In this document: one piece after another, positions 4,363 through 15,350 of the stretch | Numbering within the stretch: position 1 is the stretch's first letter | Layout: every line of letters begins with the position of its first letter | NCBI RefSeq assembly: GCF_029227855.1 | Contig: NZ_CP074356.1 | DNA length: 64,000 bases | Origin: Escherichia coli | GTDB lineage: Bacteria; Pseudomonadota; Gammaproteobacteria; Enterobacterales; Enterobacteriaceae | Strand: one strand, 5' to 3' | Program-made: the position numbers and the translations under genes | The notes under the pieces: model-generated | The model's database searches: none | The model's input: the letters and a program-made list of their open reading frames with translations, nothing else | What the model was told of the DNA's origin: nothing

Positions 4363-5285
4363 CGCTGGCGATTGACAAAACGGCGGCGCTGCTCGTCGTT
4401 CATAAAGGTCCAGGCAATAAAGCGGCTCTGCTTTTGCCCCTGGGCCATCTCTTTTTTGACCACTTTCACCGCGCCCACGTCCGTCAGAGCACGATACAAC
4501 GGCGGCAAGTTTTCGCCACGAGATACCAGCGAGGTAAACCACATCACCTGCTTCGCGAAGCCTTTGCTCTCTTCAATCATCTTTTTGATAAAAGCGACTT
4601 CACCGCCTTCACACCACAACTCCTGTTGCTGACCACCAAAGTTCAGTGCATCGTCTTTGTTCAGCCCCAGGTTACGGCGTTTACGTTCACTACCTGCCCG
4701 TGCCGCAGCGGCGGAATCGTGGAATGGCGGGTTACACAAGGTCGCGTCGTATTGCTCGTTTTTATGGATGATGCCGTTAAAAATCGCCCCACTCTCTTTT
4801 TGCCGACGCAGACGAATGGCGCGGTTAAGCCCCGGATTAGCACTGATGATCGCCTGCGCACTGCTTAACGCCTGGCTGCTGGTTTCACTACCAGTAAAAC
4901 GCCAGCCATATTCATGTACACCAATCAGCGGGTAAATACAGTTCGCACCAACGCCGATATCCAGAATGCTGGCATTAGCTGGAATTGTTCCGCTTGCTTC
5001 TGCCAGTAAATCGGCAAGGTGATGAATATAATCCGCCCGGCCCGGTACTGGCGGGCAGAGAAAACCGTCGGGGATATCCCAGTTCGCTACGGCGTAAAAA
5101 TGGGCCAGCAACGCCTTATTGAGCGCCTTCACCGCCAGCGGATTGGCAAAGTCTACGCTTTGCTCCCCGGCGGGTGTAAGCGTGAGGAATTGCCTGAGTT
5201 CAGGATTGACCTGACAAAGCGTGGCGAGATCGTAGCGGCTGTGATGACGGTTGCGCGGATGCAACCCCGGTTTCTGGGCGGACAT
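4359..5285 (-). CDS. rlmF: 23S rRNA m6A1618 methyltransferase
   Basis: 308-aa ORF matching RlmF (YbiN) in length and sequence; converges on ybiO with a 4-nt overlap. Confidence 0.9.
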
Positions 5286-5560
5286 AGCATTCTCCTTTAA
5301 GCAGCGGCGTAAGATACCCGCATAACGCGACAGGGTAAATATCTGGCTGCGTTTATCATTTCTAAAAACCTTAACATGGCTATGGTTTATGGCAATTCAT
5401 CATAAAAATCAGCATCATGCATGTCATTGATTTGTCTTATTTTGTAAAAATATATCGTTCAAAAAATAAGCGTATCTCTGTCAATTTTTTGCGTCATTTT
5501 CATCGCCCAGGCGACCTACACTTATCAGGCACTACCCGTTGTATTTATGAGGATGTCATT

Positions 5561-5821
5561 ATGAAAAAGTGCCTCACACTACTGATTGCCACCGTCCTGA
5601 GCGGAATCTCTCTCACGGCTTATGCCGCGCAACCAATGAGTAACCTGGACAGCGGTCAGCTACGGCCCGCCGGTACCGTTTCGGCAACTGGCGCATCAAA
5701 CCTAAGCGATCTGGAGGATAAACTGGCAGAAAAAGCGCGCGAGCAAGGCGCGAAAGGTTATGTCATTAATTCCGCAGGCGGAAATGACCAGATGTTCGGT
5801 ACTGCAACCATCTACAAATAA
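5561..5821 (+). CDS. mcbA: Small secreted DUF1471/YhcN-family protein (colanic acid/biofilm regulator McbA)
   Basis: Internal ATG at 5561 with GAGGA RBS gives 86 aa (MKKCLTLLIATVLSGISLTAYA signal peptide, C-terminal GTATIYK); paralogous to ybiJ in this window. Confidence 0.85.
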   Translation: MKKCLTLLIATVLSGISLTAYAAQPMSNLDSGQLRPAGTVSATGASNLSDLEDKLAEKAREQGAKGYVINSAGGNDQMFGTATIYK

Positions 5822-5835
5822 CCCCACCAACGTAA

Positions 5836-5861
5836 CTGCATTCGCCTCTGGATGCAGTTTT
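5836..5861 (+). terminator. Intrinsic terminator-like hairpin after mcbA
   Basis: ctgcat-N10-atgcag stem followed by TTTT. Confidence 0.4.
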
Positions 5862-5955
5862 CGCCTGTTTTGTAATCAAAAAACATCAAATATGAACGTA
5901 ATGTAAATAAATGTATTTCTTTTTCGCACAATGGGTGATAGAAAATCGCGCCAAG

Positions 5956-5983
5956 TGATAATGCTTATCAAAATTATTATCAC
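5956..5983. promoter_or_regulatory. Fur box candidate in the fiu promoter
   Basis: gataatgcttatcaaaattattatcac resembles the Fur consensus GATAATGATAATCATTATC; fiu is a known Fur-regulated siderophore receptor gene. Confidence 0.5.
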
Positions 5984-6085
5984 TTGCACGAGCACTATCA
6001 CGAGATTAACAGTGGCATCGCATCCGCAGAGAGGCTTTCTCGTGGCAGTGAAAATTTCAACATATAAGAAAAAGTCACCTGCAAA

Positions 6086-8368
6086 ATGGAAAACAATCGC
6101 AATTTCCCTGCCAGACAATTTCATTCGCTCACGTTCTTTGCCGGTCTTTGTATTGGCATCACGCCTGTGGCTCAGGCACTCGCCGCCGAAGGGCAAACTA
6201 ACGCGGATGACACGCTGGTTGTCGAAGCATCAACGCCTTCGCTTTATGCGCCACAACAATCTGCAGATCCGAAATTCTCGCGTCCGGTAGCGGATACTAC
6301 CCGCACGATGACGGTGATTTCTGAACAAGTGATTAAAGATCAGGGCGCAACCAACCTTACCGACGCACTCAAAAACGTCCCCGGCGTGGGTGCGTTTTTT
6401 GCGGGTGAGAACGGTAACTCCACCACTGGCGACGCCATTTATATGCGCGGTGCTGATACCTCTAACAGTATTTATATTGATGGCATTCGCGATATCGGCA
6501 GCGTCTCGCGCGACACCTTCAATACCGAGCAGGTCGAAGTGATTAAAGGGCCGTCCGGCACCGACTACGGGCGCAGCGCACCGACAGGCTCGATCAATAT
6601 GATCAGCAAGCAGCCGCGCAATGATTCCGGCATTGACGCCTCCGCCAGTATTGGTAGCGCCTGGTTCCGCCGCGGCACGCTGGACGTCAATCAGGTCATT
6701 GGTGATACCACCGCGGCGCGCCTGAATGTGATGGGCGAAAAAACGCACGATGCCGGACGCGACAAAGTCAAAAATGAGCGTTACGGCATCGCCCCTTCTG
6801 TCGCTTTTGGCCTTGGTACAGCGAATCGTTTGTATCTTAATTATCTGCATGTCACCCAGCACAACACGCCAGACGGCGGCATTCCGACCATCGGTTTGCC
6901 GGGCTATTCTGCCCCATCTGCGGGAACGGCGGCCCTGAATCATTCCGGAAAAGTTGATACGCATAACTTTTACGGCACGGATTCCGATTACGACGATTCG
7001 ACCACCGACACCGCTACCATGCGTTTTGAGCACGACATCAACGATAACACCACCATTCGCAATACTACCCGTTGGTCGCGCGTGAAGCAGGATTACCTGA
7101 TGACGGCGATTATGGGTGGGGCGTCGAATATTACCCAGCCCACCAGCGATGTGAATAGCTGGACCTGGTCACGCACGGCGAATACTAAAGATGTGAGTAA
7201 TAAAATTCTCACCAACCAGACCAACCTGACCTCGACGTTCTATACCGCTTCTATCGGTCATGATGTCAGTACCGGCGTGGAATTTACCCGTGAAACGCAG
7301 ACTAACTACGGCGTTAATCCGGTGACGTTACCTGCGGTAAATATTTATCATCCTGACAGCAGCATTCATCCCGGCGGCCTGACGCGCAACGGCGCAAACG
7401 CCAATGGTCAGACGGATACCTTCGCAATTTACGCCTTCGATACGCTGCAAATCACCCGTGATTTTGAGCTGAACGGCGGGATCCGTCTGGATAATTATCA
7501 TACTGAATATGACAGTGCCACCGCCTGCGGCGGCAGCGGACGCGGTGCCATCACCTGCCCAGCTGGTGTGGCAAAAGGTTCTCCGGTCACCACCGTCGAC
7601 ACCGCCAAGTCGGGCAATCTGGTGAACTGGAAAGCCGGGGCGCTGTATCACCTGACGGAAAACGGTAATGTCTATATTAACTATGCCGTTTCCCAGCAGC
7701 CTCCGGGCGGCAACAACTTCGCCCTTGCGCAGTCTGGCAGCGGTAACAGTGCCAACCGCACCGATTTTAAACCGCAAAAAGCCAACACCAGCGAGATTGG
7801 CACCAAATGGCAGGTTCTGGATAAACGCCTGTTGCTCACCGCCGCGCTGTTCCGTACTGATATCGAAAATGAAGTTGAGCAAAATGATGACGGAACTTAC
7901 TCGCAATACGGTAAGAAACGTGTCGAAGGCTATGAGATATCCGTGGCCGGGAATATCACTCCCGCGTGGCAGGTGATTGGCGGCTATACCCAGCAAAAAG
8001 CAACCATCAAAAACGGCAAAGATGTTGCCCAGGATGGTTCCTCATCGCTGCCGTATACCCCGGAGCACGCCTTCACCTTATGGAGCCAGTATCAGGCAAC
8101 CGATGATATCTCTGTTGGCGCGGGCGCACGCTATATCGGCAGTATGCATAAAGGTTCAGACGGCGCGGTGGGAACGCCAGCGTTTACCGAAGGTTACTGG
8201 GTCGCCGATGCCAAACTGGGGTATCGAGTTAATCGCAATCTCGACTTCCAGCTAAACGTTTACAACCTGTTTGGTACCGATTACGTCGCCTCAATCAACA
8301 AGAGCGGCTACCGTTATCACCCGGGCGAGCCAAGAACCTTCTTGCTCACAGCCAATATGCATTTCTGA
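6086..8368 (+). CDS. fiu: TonB-dependent catecholate siderophore outer-membrane receptor
   Basis: 760-aa ORF with signal peptide, plug and beta-barrel regions and terminal aromatic residue (…NMHF); length and sequence match Fiu. Confidence 0.93.
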
Positions 8369-8409
8369 TTCAGATGTGGGGCGCAGGCCCCACTTTTTGG
8401 AGAAATTGT

Positions 8410-9087
8410 ATGATGTACCACATTCCCGGCGTGTTATCGCCACAGGACGTCGCTCGTTTTCGCGAACAACTGGAACAAGCCGAATGGGTGGATGGACGCG
8501 TCACCACCGGCGCACAAGGTGCGCAAGTTAAGAACAATCAACAGGTCGACACCCGCAGCACGTTATACGCCGCCCTGCAAAATGAGGTGCTGAACGCGGT
8601 TAACCAACATGCTTTATTCTTTGCCGCGGCCTTGCCGCGTACCCTTTCCACGCCGCTGTTTAATCGCTATCAGAACAATGAAACCTATGGTTTCCATGTG
8701 GATGGCGCAGTACGCAGCCATCCACAAAACGGCTGGATGCGTACTGACCTTTCTGCCACGCTGTTTTTAAGCGATCCACAAAGCTACGACGGCGGCGAAC
8801 TGGTCGTTAATGACACCTTCGGACAACATCGGGTAAAACTCCCGGCAGGCGATCTCGTGTTGTATCCCTCCAGCAGCCTGCATTGCGTGACACCCGTAAC
8901 CCGCGGCGTACGAGTGGCATCATTTATGTGGATCCAGTCGATGATCCGTGATGATAAAAAGCGCGCCATGCTGTTTGAACTGGACAACAATATTCAGTCG
9001 CTGAAAAGCCGCTACGGCGAAAGTGAAGAGATCCTGTCGCTGCTCAATCTTTATCATAATCTGCTGCGGGAATGGTCGGAGATCTGA
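8410..9087 (+). CDS. ybiX: PKHD-type Fe(II)/2-oxoglutarate-dependent hydroxylase
   Basis: Internal ATG at 8410 preceded by GGAG gives 225 aa starting [10 protein letters not shown]; immediately downstream of fiu (fiu-ybiX operon). Confidence 0.88.
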
Positions 9088-9160
9088 CGCTTGAACTGCC
9101 CGAGTTCGTCCCTATATTAGCTACACTTAACTGTACAAGTATTGATATGGGGAGGACGAT

Positions 9161-9427
9161 ATGGCATCCGGTTGGGCAAACGATGACGCCGTCAACGAAC
9201 AGATCAACAGTACAATTGAAGATGCGATTGCCCGCGCTCGGGGTGAAATTCCGCGTGGCGAAAGCCTGTATGAATGTGAAGAGTGCGGTGCCCCTATCCC
9301 GCAGGCCCGTCGGGAAGCCATTCCTGGCGTGCGCTTATGCATTCATTGTCAGCAGGAGAAAGATTTACAAAAAACAGCTTATACAGGATATAATCGCAGA
9401 GGTTCGAAAGACAGCCAGTTACGTTAA
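9161..9427 (+). CDS. ybiI: DksA/TraR-family C4-type zinc-finger protein
   Basis: 88-aa ORF with CxxC…CxxC motif (CEECGAPIPQARREAIPGVRLCIHCQ); length matches YbiI. Confidence 0.88.
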   Translation: MASGWANDDAVNEQINSTIEDAIARARGEIPRGESLYECEECGAPIPQARREAIPGVRLCIHCQQEKDLQKTAYTGYNRRGSKDSQLR

Positions 9428-9691
9428 CTACAACTGACAGGATGTATAGCGAGTATAATTTGCACTTTGCGTGGCATTCCGTGCCTTTAACGCTGTCGTG
9501 ACTGCCACACTGCATAAAACAAGTCCATAAGTTCAACAAATAAATGGATTATCAGTATGTTAGATATCAATCAATTTATTTGAACAAGGCGGTCAATTCT
9601 CTTCGATTTTATCTCTCGTAAAAAAACGTGATACTCATCACATCGACGAAACAACGTCACTTATACAAAAATCACCTGCGAGAGATTAATT

Positions 9692-9952
9692 ATGAAAACT
9701 ATCAATACTGTTGTTGCTGCTATGGCTCTTTCAACTCTGTCATTTGGCGTGTTTGCCGCGGAACCGGTAACGGCATCCCAGGCACAGAACATGAATAAAA
9801 TCGGCGTGGTTTCTGCCGATAGCGCATCCACCCTCGATGCCCTGGAAGCGAAACTGGCTGAGAAAGCTGCGGCAGCTGGGGCGAGTGGATACAGCATCAC
9901 TTCTGCCACCAACAACAATAAATTAAGCGGTACTGCGGTAATTTATAAGTAA
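9692..9952 (+). CDS. ybiJ: Small secreted DUF1471/YhcN-family protein
   Basis: 86 aa with signal peptide and C-terminal GTAVIYK; paralog of mcbA. Confidence 0.88.
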   Translation: MKTINTVVAAMALSTLSFGVFAAEPVTASQAQNMNKIGVVSADSASTLDALEAKLAEKAAAAGASGYSITSATNNNKLSGTAVIYK

Positions 9953-10062
9953 TTCGTAAGCCGGATCAGGCGTTTACGCTACGTCCAGCACAAGTATTTC
10001 CCTGTCTGTTTGCCGACAGACGCATATGCTCTAACCCTCATTGATCCTATGTTACCCTTGTT

Positions 10063-10091
10063 TGCCCGTCCGCCACTGGACGGGCTTTTTT

Positions 10092-10093
<2 letters not shown>
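10063..10093 (+). terminator. Intrinsic terminator after ybiJ
   Basis: gcccgtcc-gccactg-gacgggc hairpin followed by a run of eight or more T. Confidence 0.6.
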
Positions 10094-11231
<1,138 letters not shown>

Positions 11232-14628: not shown

Positions 14629-14910
14629 TTATTCCGCTGGCGGCCATTGCAGAGCGGTATGTAAAACACGCAGTACCGAGAGCGTATCGCCCTCCACTTG
14701 ATAGACAAGCACATAATGCGGCCTGACAACGGCTTCATGTGTACCAGCGACTCGTCCGGCCCGGTACATCTCCGGGCGTTCACAGGCCTGTTCCGCAATG
14801 GCTTCAAATTGATTATCAAGGGCTATTGCCGCTAGCGGATTATCTTTACTGATGTATTCCATGATTTGCTCCCTGTCAGACAGGGACATTGGCTTCCATT
14901 CCAGACGCAT
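14629..14910 (-). CDS. ParE/RelE-superfamily toxin-like protein (93 aa)
   Basis: MRLEW…IAEQACERPEMYRAGRVAGTHEAVVRPHYVLVYQVEGDTLSVLRVLH shows the ParE pattern seen in Caulobacter ParE1 (aligned by eye from memory); start overlaps the upstream gene stop as TAATG. Confidence 0.85.
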   Translation of the reverse strand: MRLEWKPMSLSDREQIMEYISKDNPLAAIALDNQFEAIAEQACERPEMYRAGRVAGTHEAVVRPHYVLVYQVEGDTLSVLRVLHTALQWPPAE

Positions 14911-15350
14911 TAATCCCCCTTCAGCAAGGCTTTTTTACGGGCAGCAAATAGACTTTTGGCCTCTTCATGAGAGAGTGCCGGGCGTGGATCGTCAATGGCG
15001 GCCTGCACCTGCTCTCGAAACCAGGCATCATACGCGGCAGCTTCATGAGCTCGTTTTAATGCCTCAGCCCTGTCTGGTCGGGTCGTTTTCTTCTGACCGT
15101 CCGGGTCGTAATTAGAGGCGTCGACTTCAAACCGGGCAATACCAACATCTTTCAGGTAGTTGACAACCGTTTCCAGCCGTTTGAACAGGCGGATTTGCCG
15201 ACTGCGTTGTGCTGCAAGAGGCCGTTCAGTGTGGCCGTATTTCACGGTCAACGACCAGCCTCCCTGGGTGCCAATAACGTGTGCTGCATCCACTACGCCA
15301 GATTCAACCAGTTTATGTAAGGTTGAGTGATCGATCGTTTCTGGTGCCAT
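14910..15350 (-). CDS. Putative cognate antitoxin / partner protein (146 aa) with unrecognised N-terminal region
   Basis: ORF with AAAGAGG RBS about 10 nt upstream, translationally coupled to the ParE-like gene; only one Met; C-terminal charged helical tail (DAWFREQVQAAIDDPRPALSHEEAKSLFAARKKAL); family not assigned. Confidence 0.6.
   Translation of the reverse strand: MAPETIDHSTLHKLVESGVVDAAHVIGTQGGWSLTVKYGHTERPLAAQRSRQIRLFKRLETVVNYLKDVGIARFEVDASNYDPDGQKKTTRPDRAEALKRAHEAAAYDAWFREQVQAAIDDPRPALSHEEAKSLFAARKKALLKGD

What the first reader, a model, noticed from the sequence alone, without database searches (positions are those of the whole stretch)
5561..9952. Two paralogous DUF1471-type small secreted proteins (mcbA, ybiJ) flank the fiu-ybiX-ybiI block
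Both 86-aa products have signal peptides and near-identical C-terminal ends (…GTATIYK / …GTAVIYK) plus a shared internal motif (L(D/E)AKLAEKA…GA(K/S)GY). They bracket the Fur-regulated fiu-ybiX pair about 4 kb apart, which suggests a local duplication. Their molecular function is poorly defined.
Basis: seen in the sequence. Interest (0 to 1): 0.2.

Follow-up and report, generated by a model that had tools for sequence, protein, structure and literature searches.

The report
Known mcbA and ybiJ paralogues
The two small genes are the known E. coli periplasmic stress-protein genes mcbA and ybiJ, old and separately regulated members of one family, so the finding is real but ordinary, and the proposed local duplication is plausible but cannot be proven.

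Summary
Window 5561-5821 (+) is mcbA and 9692-9952 (+) is ybiJ. Both products are 86 aa, 45% identical without gaps (E=5e-15), and both match Pfam PF07338 (DUF1471). They flank fiu, ybiX and ybiI.

The window is identical to E. coli JNEC-KY178. The block is in 5416 of 5426 complete E. coli genomes. McbA equals K-12 McbA; YbiJ differs only by G44S.

The local-duplication idea is only partly supported.
- The flanks show no similarity above shuffles, and third codon positions are saturated (30% identity).
- The pair is no closer to each other than to BhsA, which is 43-46.5% identical to each.
- Trees and profile comparisons favour McbA+YbiJ only weakly (47-57% bootstrap on the mature domain), and this is lost when more of the family is included.
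- The order rlmF|mcbA-fiu-ybiX-ybiI-ybiJ|ybiB is shared by at least seven genera of Enterobacteriaceae, so any duplication is ancient.
- Salmonella lacks mcbA-fiu-ybiX. Enterobacter lacks only fiu-ybiX.
- fiu-ybiX occurs without DUF1471 neighbours in Pantoea, Serratia and Tatumella.

The genes are separate transcription units with different regulators: McbR for mcbA; YhaJ, acid and a CRP-like site for ybiJ. A McbA model has the DUF1471 fold and resembles RcsF. All of this is already known, so interest is low.

The parts
5561..5821 (+). mcbA (ybiM) CDS. The 86-aa precursor of the periplasmic DUF1471 protein McbA. Codons 1-22 (5561-5626) form the signal peptide.
   Evidence: ORF. RefSeq annotation. 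PF07338 at 69.8 bits. Identical to K-12 McbA. AF2 model with beta-alpha-beta-beta domain at residues 36-85, pLDDT about 90.
5834..5873 (+). Terminator-like hairpin after mcbA (stem 5834-5843 paired with 5850-5859) followed by a U-rich tail.
   Evidence: RNA fold -14.1 kcal/mol, z=-2.97 against shuffles. The equivalent hairpin is kept after mcbA in E. cloacae.
5957..5981 (.). Fur-box-like sequence in the fiu promoter, between mcbA and fiu.
   Evidence: Best matches in 5200-10300 to the 19-mer Fur consensus (recalled from memory): 15/19 and 14/19 at 5957-5981. A promoter-like site lies at 5935-5962.
6086..8368 (+). fiu, TonB-dependent catecholate siderophore receptor (flanked gene).
   Evidence: Pfam Plug and TonB_dep_Rec_b-barrel. 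Annotation.
8410..9087 (+). ybiX, PKHD-type Fe(II)/2-oxoglutarate hydroxylase (flanked gene).
   Evidence: Pfam 2OG-FeII_Oxy_3 and PKHD_C. Annotation.
9161..9427 (+). ybiI, DksA/TraR-type C4 zinc-finger protein. It stays next to ybiJ where fiu-ybiX is missing.
   Evidence: Pfam zf-dskA_traR. Adjacent to ybiJ in Salmonella and Enterobacter.
9571..9583 (+). YhaJ (LysR-type) box TCA-N7-TGA of the ybiJ promoter.
   Evidence: The published inactivating mutations C-120 and T-112/T-111 (relative to the ATG) map onto 9572 and 9580-9581 (PMC5031710; sequence). The block is conserved across genera.
9627..9642 (+). CRP-like site CGTGA-N6-TCACA inside a 21-nt stretch that is invariant in all ybiJ loci examined.
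   Evidence: The only match with at most 1 mismatch to TGTGA-N6-TCACA (CRP consensus recalled from memory) in the 64-kb window. The 21-mer is present once in each of 41 ybiJ-bearing loci and absent from the loci of other paralogues. ybiJ and ybiI are listed as CRP SELEX targets (PMC3105977).
9692..9952 (+). ybiJ CDS. The 86-aa precursor of the periplasmic DUF1471 protein YbiJ. Codons 1-22 (9692-9757) form the signal peptide.
   Evidence: ORF. Annotation. PF07338 at 63.4 bits. 85/86 identical to K-12 YbiJ, with G44S.
9997..10093 (+). zbiJ, an annotated small regulatory RNA in the ybiJ 3' region, ending in an intrinsic terminator (stem 10064-10085 plus T8).
   Evidence: 100% identical to K-12 b4814. 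Terminator found; fold -17.6 kcal/mol, z=-4.0.

Best explanation
These are the known E. coli core genes mcbA (ybiM) and ybiJ. They are two old paralogues of the Enterobacterales-restricted DUF1471 (YhcN / BhsA-McbA) family.

Shown here or in the literature: each gene encodes an 86-aa precursor carrying a Sec-type signal peptide. The mature product is a periplasmic alpha+beta domain of about 64 aa.

Shown: they are separate transcription units under different regulators. mcbA has its own terminator and is repressed by McbR/YncC (literature). ybiJ has its own promoter with a YhaJ box and a CRP-like site, is acid-induced, and is followed by the sRNA ZbiJ.

Shown: the order rlmF|mcbA-fiu-ybiX-ybiI-ybiJ|ybiB is shared across the Enterobacteriaceae genera examined. 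mcbA-fiu-ybiX is absent in Salmonella, fiu-ybiX in Enterobacter, and mcbA in some Klebsiella and Kluyvera. Reading these absences as later deletions is a parsimony inference.

Inferred, about 55% likely: the pair arose by one ancient local duplication in an ancestor of these genera. mcbA then evolved faster and the two genes diverged in regulation.

Inferred, about 30% likely: like other family members, both proteins act by binding envelope partners through their RcsF-like fold. Candidate partners are outer-membrane proteins or components of the Rcs pathway. This would change envelope permeability and stress signalling. For McbA it would explain the colanic-acid overproduction seen when it is derepressed.
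For: Identity: the window equals NZ_AP045174.1, and the annotation names mcbA and ybiJ. McbA is identical to K-12 McbA and YbiJ is 85/86 identical. The block is in 5416 of 5426 E. coli genomes.

Age: the same gene order occurs in Escherichia, Citrobacter, Leclercia, Silvania, Pseudocitrobacter, Kluyvera and Raoultella.

Selection: both genes are under purifying selection (dN/dS 0.05-0.19). mcbA dN is 1.4-2.9 times that of ybiJ.

Absences: Salmonella has rlmF|ybiI-ybiJ|ybiB. E. cloacae has rlmF|mcbA-ybiI-ybiJ|ybiB, and both junction sequences are retained. K. michiganensis has no mcbA.

Duplication: the genes share a strand and lie 4.1 kb apart. For the 10 K-12 family genes, the chance of at least 2 pairs within 5 kb is P=0.004. 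McbA+YbiJ is the best-supported grouping on the mature domain, with 47-57% bootstrap against 8-12% for McbA+BhsA. The McbA-YbiJ profile score is 102.9, against 89.4 for McbA-BhsA.

Separate units: a terminator-like hairpin follows mcbA, a Fur box lies before fiu, and ybiJ has a YhaJ box and a terminator.

Function, from the literature: McbR represses mcbA and controls colanic acid (PMC4092069). YbiJ carries a Sec signal, shows faint envelope enrichment and has an RcsF-like predicted fold. BhsA lowers permeability to copper, YjfN acts with DegP on OmpA, and an OMP-interaction hypothesis has been proposed for the family (PMC12096828).
Against: Against local duplication:
- No flank similarity. 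Upstream score is 11 against 10.3 +/- 1.5 for shuffles; downstream is 9 against 8.5 +/- 1.3. There are no meaningful repeats.
- McbA-YbiJ identity (45%) is not above McbA-BhsA (43%), YbiJ-BhsA (46.5%) or YbiJ-YhcN (44%).
- With the signal peptide included, McbA+BhsA gets 43% bootstrap and McbA+YbiJ gets 11%.
- In a tree with 75 further cluster representatives the two clades are not sisters.
- On full length, the YbiJ-BhsA profile score (130.7) slightly exceeds McbA-YbiJ (128.3).

Against the mechanism:
- No partner has been shown for either protein.
- McbA lacks the lipobox and the disulfide cysteines of RcsF and is only 13% identical to it.
- The RclB study found no change in OMP abundance.
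Confidence: 0.55

Rival explanations
1. mcbA did not come from ybiJ. A BhsA-like or other family copy was relocated or horizontally acquired, and landed next to rlmF in an ancestor of the Enterobacteriaceae. The proximity to ybiJ is then coincidental.
For: McbA is as similar to BhsA (43%, 68 bits) as to YbiJ (45%, 50-67 bits). Many Citrobacter McbA orthologues score higher against BhsA than against YbiJ. Full-length bootstrap favours McbA+BhsA at 43%. The published closest Salmonella match to YbiM is YcfR/BhsA at 47%. The nearest non-orthologous relatives lie in unrelated genomic contexts, so the family does disperse. One pair within 5 kb arises by chance with P=0.09.
Against: On the mature domain, McbA+YbiJ gets 47-57% bootstrap and McbA+BhsA gets 8-12%. 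The McbA-YbiJ profile score is the highest for McbA. The signal-peptide similarity to BhsA may reflect composition only. The two genes share strand and length and align without gaps, whereas BhsA and YhcN need indels. The family shows significant local clustering overall.
Confidence: 0.3
2. The two DUF1471 genes and fiu-ybiX-ybiI form one functional module. For example, McbA and YbiJ could be periplasmic accessory proteins of the Fiu/YbiX iron-catecholate system, kept together by selection.
For: The gene order is conserved in at least seven genera. All five genes are on one strand. Fiu is an outer-membrane protein, and DUF1471 proteins are suspected to interact with OMPs.
Against: Enterobacter keeps mcbA-ybiI-ybiJ without fiu-ybiX. 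Salmonella keeps ybiI-ybiJ only. Pantoea, Rouxiella, Serratia and Tatumella have fiu-ybiX with no DUF1471 neighbour. Some Klebsiella and Kluyvera lack mcbA. A terminator-like hairpin and a separate Fur-box promoter separate mcbA from fiu. The regulators differ: McbR, Fur, and YhaJ/CRP/acid.
Confidence: 0.05
3. The pair is a recent duplication, or is kept similar by gene conversion, within the Escherichia lineage.
For: Near-identical C-terminal heptapeptides and a shared KLAEKA motif.
Against: CDS nucleotide identity is 49%, and 30% at third positions. Orthologues of each gene form separate clades across genera with 75-96% bootstrap. The shared motifs are family-wide, since BhsA also ends in GTAVIYK.
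Confidence: 0.01

Closest known systems
McbA / YbiM of E. coli K-12 (b0806)
   Same: The 86-aa sequence is identical and the genomic position between rlmF and fiu is the same.
   Different: Nothing differs at the protein level. There are 2 synonymous nucleotide differences in 261 nt.
YbiJ of E. coli K-12 (b0802)
   Same: 85/86 residues are identical. Position, promoter elements (YhaJ box) and the downstream zbiJ sRNA are the same.
   Different: G44S is present in this strain, at a position that is G in all YbiJ orthologues examined. K-12 carries extra REP-like sequence between ybiJ and zbiJ.
BhsA / YcfR (b1112), a multiple-stress-resistance DUF1471 protein
   Same: Same family, size, signal-peptide layout and GTAVIYK C-terminus. 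It is 43% identical to McbA and 46.5% to YbiJ. It is stress-induced and linked to biofilm and permeability.
   Different: It lies at a distant locus (1.17 Mb in K-12) and forms a separate clade with 89-100% bootstrap. It is reported as outer-membrane associated.
Adjacent DUF1471 gene pairs: yjfN-bsmA in E. coli, and yhcN with a ycfR-like gene in Salmonella
   Same: These are further cases of family members lying next to each other. They have been cited as signs of expansion by local duplication.
   Different: Those pairs are directly adjacent. Here 3.9 kb with three unrelated genes lies between the two copies.
RcsF, the outer-membrane lipoprotein sensor of the Rcs envelope-stress system (PDB 2y1b)
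   Different: Identity is only 13%. There is no lipobox, no lipidated linker and no disulfide cysteines, and no Pfam match other than PF07338. This is a resemblance, not family membership.

Membership tests
DUF1471 / YhcN / BhsA-McbA family (Pfam PF07338) | Match to the family HMM above the curated gathering score | tested here: met
   69.8 bits (McbA) and 63.4 bits (YbiJ) against a cut-off of 27, over residues 34-86.
DUF1471 / YhcN / BhsA-McbA family (Pfam PF07338) | Small single-domain protein of about 90 aa with an N-terminal Sec signal peptide | tested here: met
   Both are 86 aa, with a basic N-terminus, a hydrophobic core and an A/V-x-A site at residues 20-22. This was judged by inspection only; no SignalP run was possible. 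The literature agrees for YbiJ.
DUF1471 / YhcN / BhsA-McbA family (Pfam PF07338) | Mixed alpha+beta fold as in the solved SrfN, YahO and YdgH domains | tested here: met
DUF1471 / YhcN / BhsA-McbA family (Pfam PF07338) | Taxonomic restriction to Enterobacterales | tested here: met
   All named homologues recovered are from Enterobacteriaceae genera. The 428 cluster representatives carry no names, so this is only a partial test.
Product of a local (tandem or segmental) gene duplication | Residual similarity of flanking DNA, or duplication junctions | tested here: not met
   Flank alignments do not differ from shuffles. No supporting repeats were found.
Product of a local (tandem or segmental) gene duplication | The two copies are each other's closest relatives within the family | tested here: inconclusive
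   Pairwise identities are 43-46.5% among McbA, YbiJ and BhsA. McbA+YbiJ bootstrap is 47-57% on the mature domain and 11% on full length. They are not sisters in the broad tree. Profile scores favour McbA-YbiJ only slightly.
Product of a local (tandem or segmental) gene duplication | Proximity and shared orientation beyond chance | tested here: met
   The genes are 4.1 kb apart on the same strand. The family is clustered: P=0.004 for at least 2 pairs within 5 kb. A single pair alone gives P=0.09.
RcsF family (outer-membrane lipoprotein sensor) | Lipobox cysteine, lipidated N-terminal linker and two disulfide bonds (RcsF features recalled from memory and) | tested here: not met
   Mature McbA and YbiJ contain no cysteine, and there is no lipobox. 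Only the fold is similar, at 13% identity.
Single operon or functional module with fiu-ybiX | Co-transcription and co-occurrence across genomes | tested here: not met
   A terminator-like hairpin and a Fur-box promoter lie between mcbA and fiu. ybiJ has its own YhaJ-dependent promoter. The elements occur separately in Enterobacter, Salmonella, Pantoea, Serratia and Tatumella.

The most novel reading that the evidence does not exclude
McbA, and perhaps YbiJ, could be soluble periplasmic mimics of the RcsF fold. They would compete for the partners of RcsF, namely OmpA/C/F or the periplasmic domain of IgaA, and so tune Rcs signalling. Derepressing mcbA would then switch on colanic-acid synthesis directly. 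The three differently regulated units at this locus would give separate inputs to the state of the envelope: McbR and folate, Fur and iron, and YhaJ, CRP and acid.
Probability: 0.12. Interest if true: 0.45.

Novelty: already known. Interest (0 to 1): 0.08.

Why it matters
It matters little as a discovery. Both genes, their family, their paralogy and their neighbours are annotated and published.

This check adds some context:
- McbA is not specific to E. coli. It has positional orthologues in Citrobacter, Leclercia, Silvania, Enterobacter, Pseudocitrobacter, Kluyvera and Raoultella.
- The flanking arrangement is ancient, with lineage-specific absences.
- The two copies have diverged in evolutionary rate and in regulation.

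The biochemical function of DUF1471 proteins remains an open question, and this locus offers no special way to address it.

Tried and rejected
- Flank homology. Local alignments of the upstream and downstream DNA of the two genes, on both strands, scored no better than shuffles. Sensitive blastn found only the CDS-to-CDS match, and the repeat finder found only short chance matches.
- Rfam scan of 5200-10300. There were only three weak hits below threshold, over the REP and terminator region after ybiJ.
- RNA structure in the conserved ybiJ leader. The fold is not better than shuffles (z=-0.94). The conservation is better explained by protein-binding sites for YhaJ and CRP.
- Near-adjacent mcbA-ybiI-ybiJ in Enterobacter as a relic of a tandem state. 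This was rejected because its closest sampled relatives, Leclercia and Silvania, have fiu-ybiX at the same site, and the Enterobacter junction keeps both edges. A secondary deletion is therefore more parsimonious.
- Search for a pre-duplication state through the nearest non-orthologous cluster representatives (P0258, P0302, P0254, P0304). All lie in unrelated contexts.
- Search through YbiI homologues. The 120 listed are all from Enterobacteriaceae at 78% identity or more, so this was uninformative.
- Broad neighbour-joining tree of about 150 sequences on 57 columns. The deep nodes are unresolved.
- The costly metagenome scan was not run. The finding did not justify it.


Full report
**What is there**

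The window region is identical to E. coli strain JNEC-KY178, record NZ_AP045174.1. Identity is 100% over 5 kb and 16300 of 16300 bases in the overlapping stretch. RefSeq annotation of that record gives this order: rlmF (-), mcbA, fiu, ybiX, ybiI, ybiJ (all +), ybiE (-), hcxB (-), ybiB (-).

In window coordinates, mcbA is 5561-5821 and ybiJ is 9692-9952. For mcbA the mechanical ORF begins at 5417. The annotated start, conserved among orthologues, is the MKKCL codon at 5561. The block is present in 5421 of 5426 complete E. coli genomes, with at least 80% coverage in 5416. McbA is identical to K-12 McbA. YbiJ differs by G44S.

**Check of the observation**

- The two 86-aa products align without gaps at 45% identity, E=5e-15.
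- Both match Pfam PF07338 (YdgH/BhsA/McbA-like, DUF1471), at 69.8 and 63.4 bits against a cut-off of 27.
- Identity is 36% in the signal peptide, 18% in the mature N-terminal segment and 55% in the domain.
- The C-terminal heptapeptides are as quoted. The internal motif reads LE(D/A)KLAEKA...GA(K/S)GY.
- Both N-termini look like Sec signal peptides. Neither mature protein contains cysteine.

**Is it a local duplication?**

Evidence against, or neutral:
Upstream and downstream flanks are no more alike than shuffled sequence, and no duplication junction or repeat is present.
- The CDSs are 49% identical at the nucleotide level and 30% at third codon positions, so synonymous sites are saturated.
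- I fetched the other eight K-12 family genes: bhsA, yhcN, yjfN, bsmA, yjfY, ydgH, rclB and yahO. McbA-YbiJ (45%) is not closer than McbA-BhsA (43%), YbiJ-BhsA (46.5%) or YbiJ-YhcN (44%). This agrees with the published remark that the best Salmonella match to YbiM is YcfR/BhsA (PMC4092069).

Phylogenetic evidence:
- Bootstrapped neighbour-joining trees used positional orthologues from 28 loci plus BhsA and YhcN orthologues. All four subfamilies are monophyletic (75-100%).
- McbA+YbiJ is the best grouping on the mature domain, at 47-57% against 8-12% for McbA+BhsA.
- With the signal peptide included, McbA+BhsA gets 43% and McbA+YbiJ gets 11%.
- After adding 75 cluster representatives from a scan of 1.8 billion proteins (428 family clusters), the two clades stay intact but are not sisters, and the deep nodes are unresolved.
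- Profile-profile scores on the mature domain are McbA-YbiJ 102.9, YbiJ-BhsA 92.8 and McbA-BhsA 89.4. On full length, YbiJ-BhsA (130.7) is about equal to McbA-YbiJ (128.3).

Evidence in favour:
- The two genes are close together and on the same strand.
- The family is clustered in K-12. For ten randomly placed genes, at least 2 pairs within 5 kb has P=0.004. A single pair has P=0.09.

My estimate is about 55% for an ancient local duplication and about 30% for independent arrival of mcbA.

**Age and history of the arrangement**

I used YbiX as an anchor in a scan of one genome per species. The order rlmF|mcbA-fiu-ybiX-ybiI-ybiJ|ybiB is found in Escherichia, Citrobacter, Leclercia, Silvania, Pseudocitrobacter vendiensis and Raoultella, and also in Kluyvera, where ybiI is missing.

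McbA orthologues are 46-74% identical to E. coli McbA. YbiJ orthologues are 69-84% identical to E. coli YbiJ. Both genes are under purifying selection (dN/dS 0.05-0.19), and mcbA accumulates 1.4-2.9 times more non-synonymous change.

Lineage-specific absences:
- mcbA is absent in K. michiganensis, K. spallanzanii, Kluyvera sichuanensis and P. faecalis.
- Salmonella has only rlmF|ybiI-ybiJ|ybiB.
- Enterobacter cloacae has rlmF|mcbA-ybiI-ybiJ|ybiB. Its upstream gene is a true McbA orthologue at 62.5% identity. It keeps the mcbA terminator and the whole ybiX-ybiI spacer.

Leclercia and Silvania carry fiu-ybiX at the same site, so the Enterobacter state is best read as a deletion. Pantoea, Rouxiella, Serratia and Tatumella carry fiu-ybiX with neither DUF1471 gene nearby.

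The arrangement is therefore old, and the parts are separable. A functional module with fiu-ybiX is not supported.

**Anatomy and regulation**

- mcbA is followed by a terminator-like hairpin at 5834-5859 with a U-rich tail (z=-2.97).
- The best Fur-box matches in the region lie at 5957-5981, ahead of fiu.
- The 150 bp upstream of ybiJ are about 80% conserved between E. coli, Salmonella and Enterobacter. They contain blocks conserved across 16 aligned species.
- One conserved block is the published YhaJ box TCA-N7-TGA. The inactivating mutations at -120 and -112/-111 map to 9572 and 9580-9581 (PMC5031710).
- Another is a 21-nt stretch that is invariant in all 41 ybiJ-bearing loci. It contains CGTGA-N6-TCACA at 9627-9642, which is the only near-consensus CRP pattern in the window. 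ybiJ and ybiI were listed as CRP SELEX targets (PMC3105977).
- ybiJ is among the most strongly acid-induced genes (PMC10746267).
- Downstream lie the annotated sRNA zbiJ at 9997-10093, 100% identical to K-12, with a strong terminator, and the antisense micro-ORF ybiE.
- mcbA is reported to be repressed by McbR/YncC, and derepression causes colanic-acid overproduction (Zhang et al. 2008, cited in PMC4092069). McbR itself responds to dihydrofolate (PMC13343897).

The two paralogues are thus wired to different signals.

**How the proteins probably work**

An AlphaFold2 model of McbA, built from a 66-sequence alignment, has a confident beta-alpha-beta-beta domain. pLDDT is about 90 from residue 41 onward, and the signal peptide is disordered.

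McbA lacks the lipobox and the cysteines of RcsF, so this is a resemblance and not family membership. Colanic-acid overproduction is the classic output of the Rcs system (my own knowledge). The most economical mechanism for McbA is therefore action on envelope or Rcs partners through this fold. That is inference, at roughly 30%. No partner is known.

**Verdict**

The duplication hypothesis is reasonable and cannot be settled from sequence. If true, the event is ancient. Novelty: already known. Interest: low.

Noticed in passing
window 9627-9647 (and 9593-9616, 9571-9583): The ybiJ upstream region has non-coding blocks that are invariant across at least 12 genera. A 21-mer, CGTGATACTNNTCACATCGAC, occurs once in every one of 41 ybiJ-bearing loci. 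It contains a near-consensus CRP half-site pair, CGTGA-N6-TCACA, which overlaps a possible -10 element, GATACT (9630-9635). Whether CRP activates or represses here is not clear.
   Followed up: partly
window 9997-10093 (+) and 9966-10025 (-): The ybiJ 3' region carries the annotated sRNA zbiJ, which is 100% identical to K-12 b4814 and ends in a strong intrinsic terminator. The 19-aa micro-ORF ybiE lies antisense to it. K-12 has about 89 nt of extra REP-like sequence between ybiJ and zbiJ that this strain lacks.
   Followed up: partly
window 9821-9823 (YbiJ codon 44): YbiJ of this strain has Ser at position 44. K-12 and all YbiJ orthologues examined in other genera have Gly there (SA[D/E]GA).
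   Followed up: no
window 14629-15350 (-): A ParE-family toxin (PF05016) and a PaaA2-type antitoxin (PF21217) lie between dinG and rhlE. K-12 has ybiA at that position.
   Followed up: partly
window 8376-8393 (+): A GC-rich hairpin followed by TTTTT lies in the 41-nt gap between the fiu stop and the ybiX start. It could be a partial terminator or attenuator inside the supposed fiu-ybiX unit.
   Followed up: no
L040 6755-7369; L035 6331-6945: Klebsiella and Raoultella carry an extra 204-aa flavin-reductase-like gene (PF01613) between rlmF and the mcbA position. Kluyvera and Pseudocitrobacter vendiensis show a similar-sized gap there, whose content was not inspected. In K. michiganensis this gene is followed directly by fiu, with no mcbA.
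   Followed up: partly
L034 7170-7439; L039 6940-7212: The McbA positional orthologues of Kluyvera genomosp. 3 and K. georgiana have a cysteine at the end of the hydrophobic leader (...TTTAC-AQP and ...TTGC-THP). This may mean conversion to a lipoprotein, as in the family member BsmA.
   Followed up: no
L089 10594-15953: In Enterobacter cloacae a chaperone-usher fimbrial operon lies between ybiB and dinG, next to the shortened mcbA-ybiI-ybiJ locus.
   Followed up: no
protein P0001 (E. coli, 114 aa): One E. coli record encodes a 114-aa YbiJ variant that scores higher than the full-length protein against the family profile (156 bits, and 180 bits against YbiJ). It looks like an internal partial duplication or a frameshifted C-terminus.
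   Followed up: no
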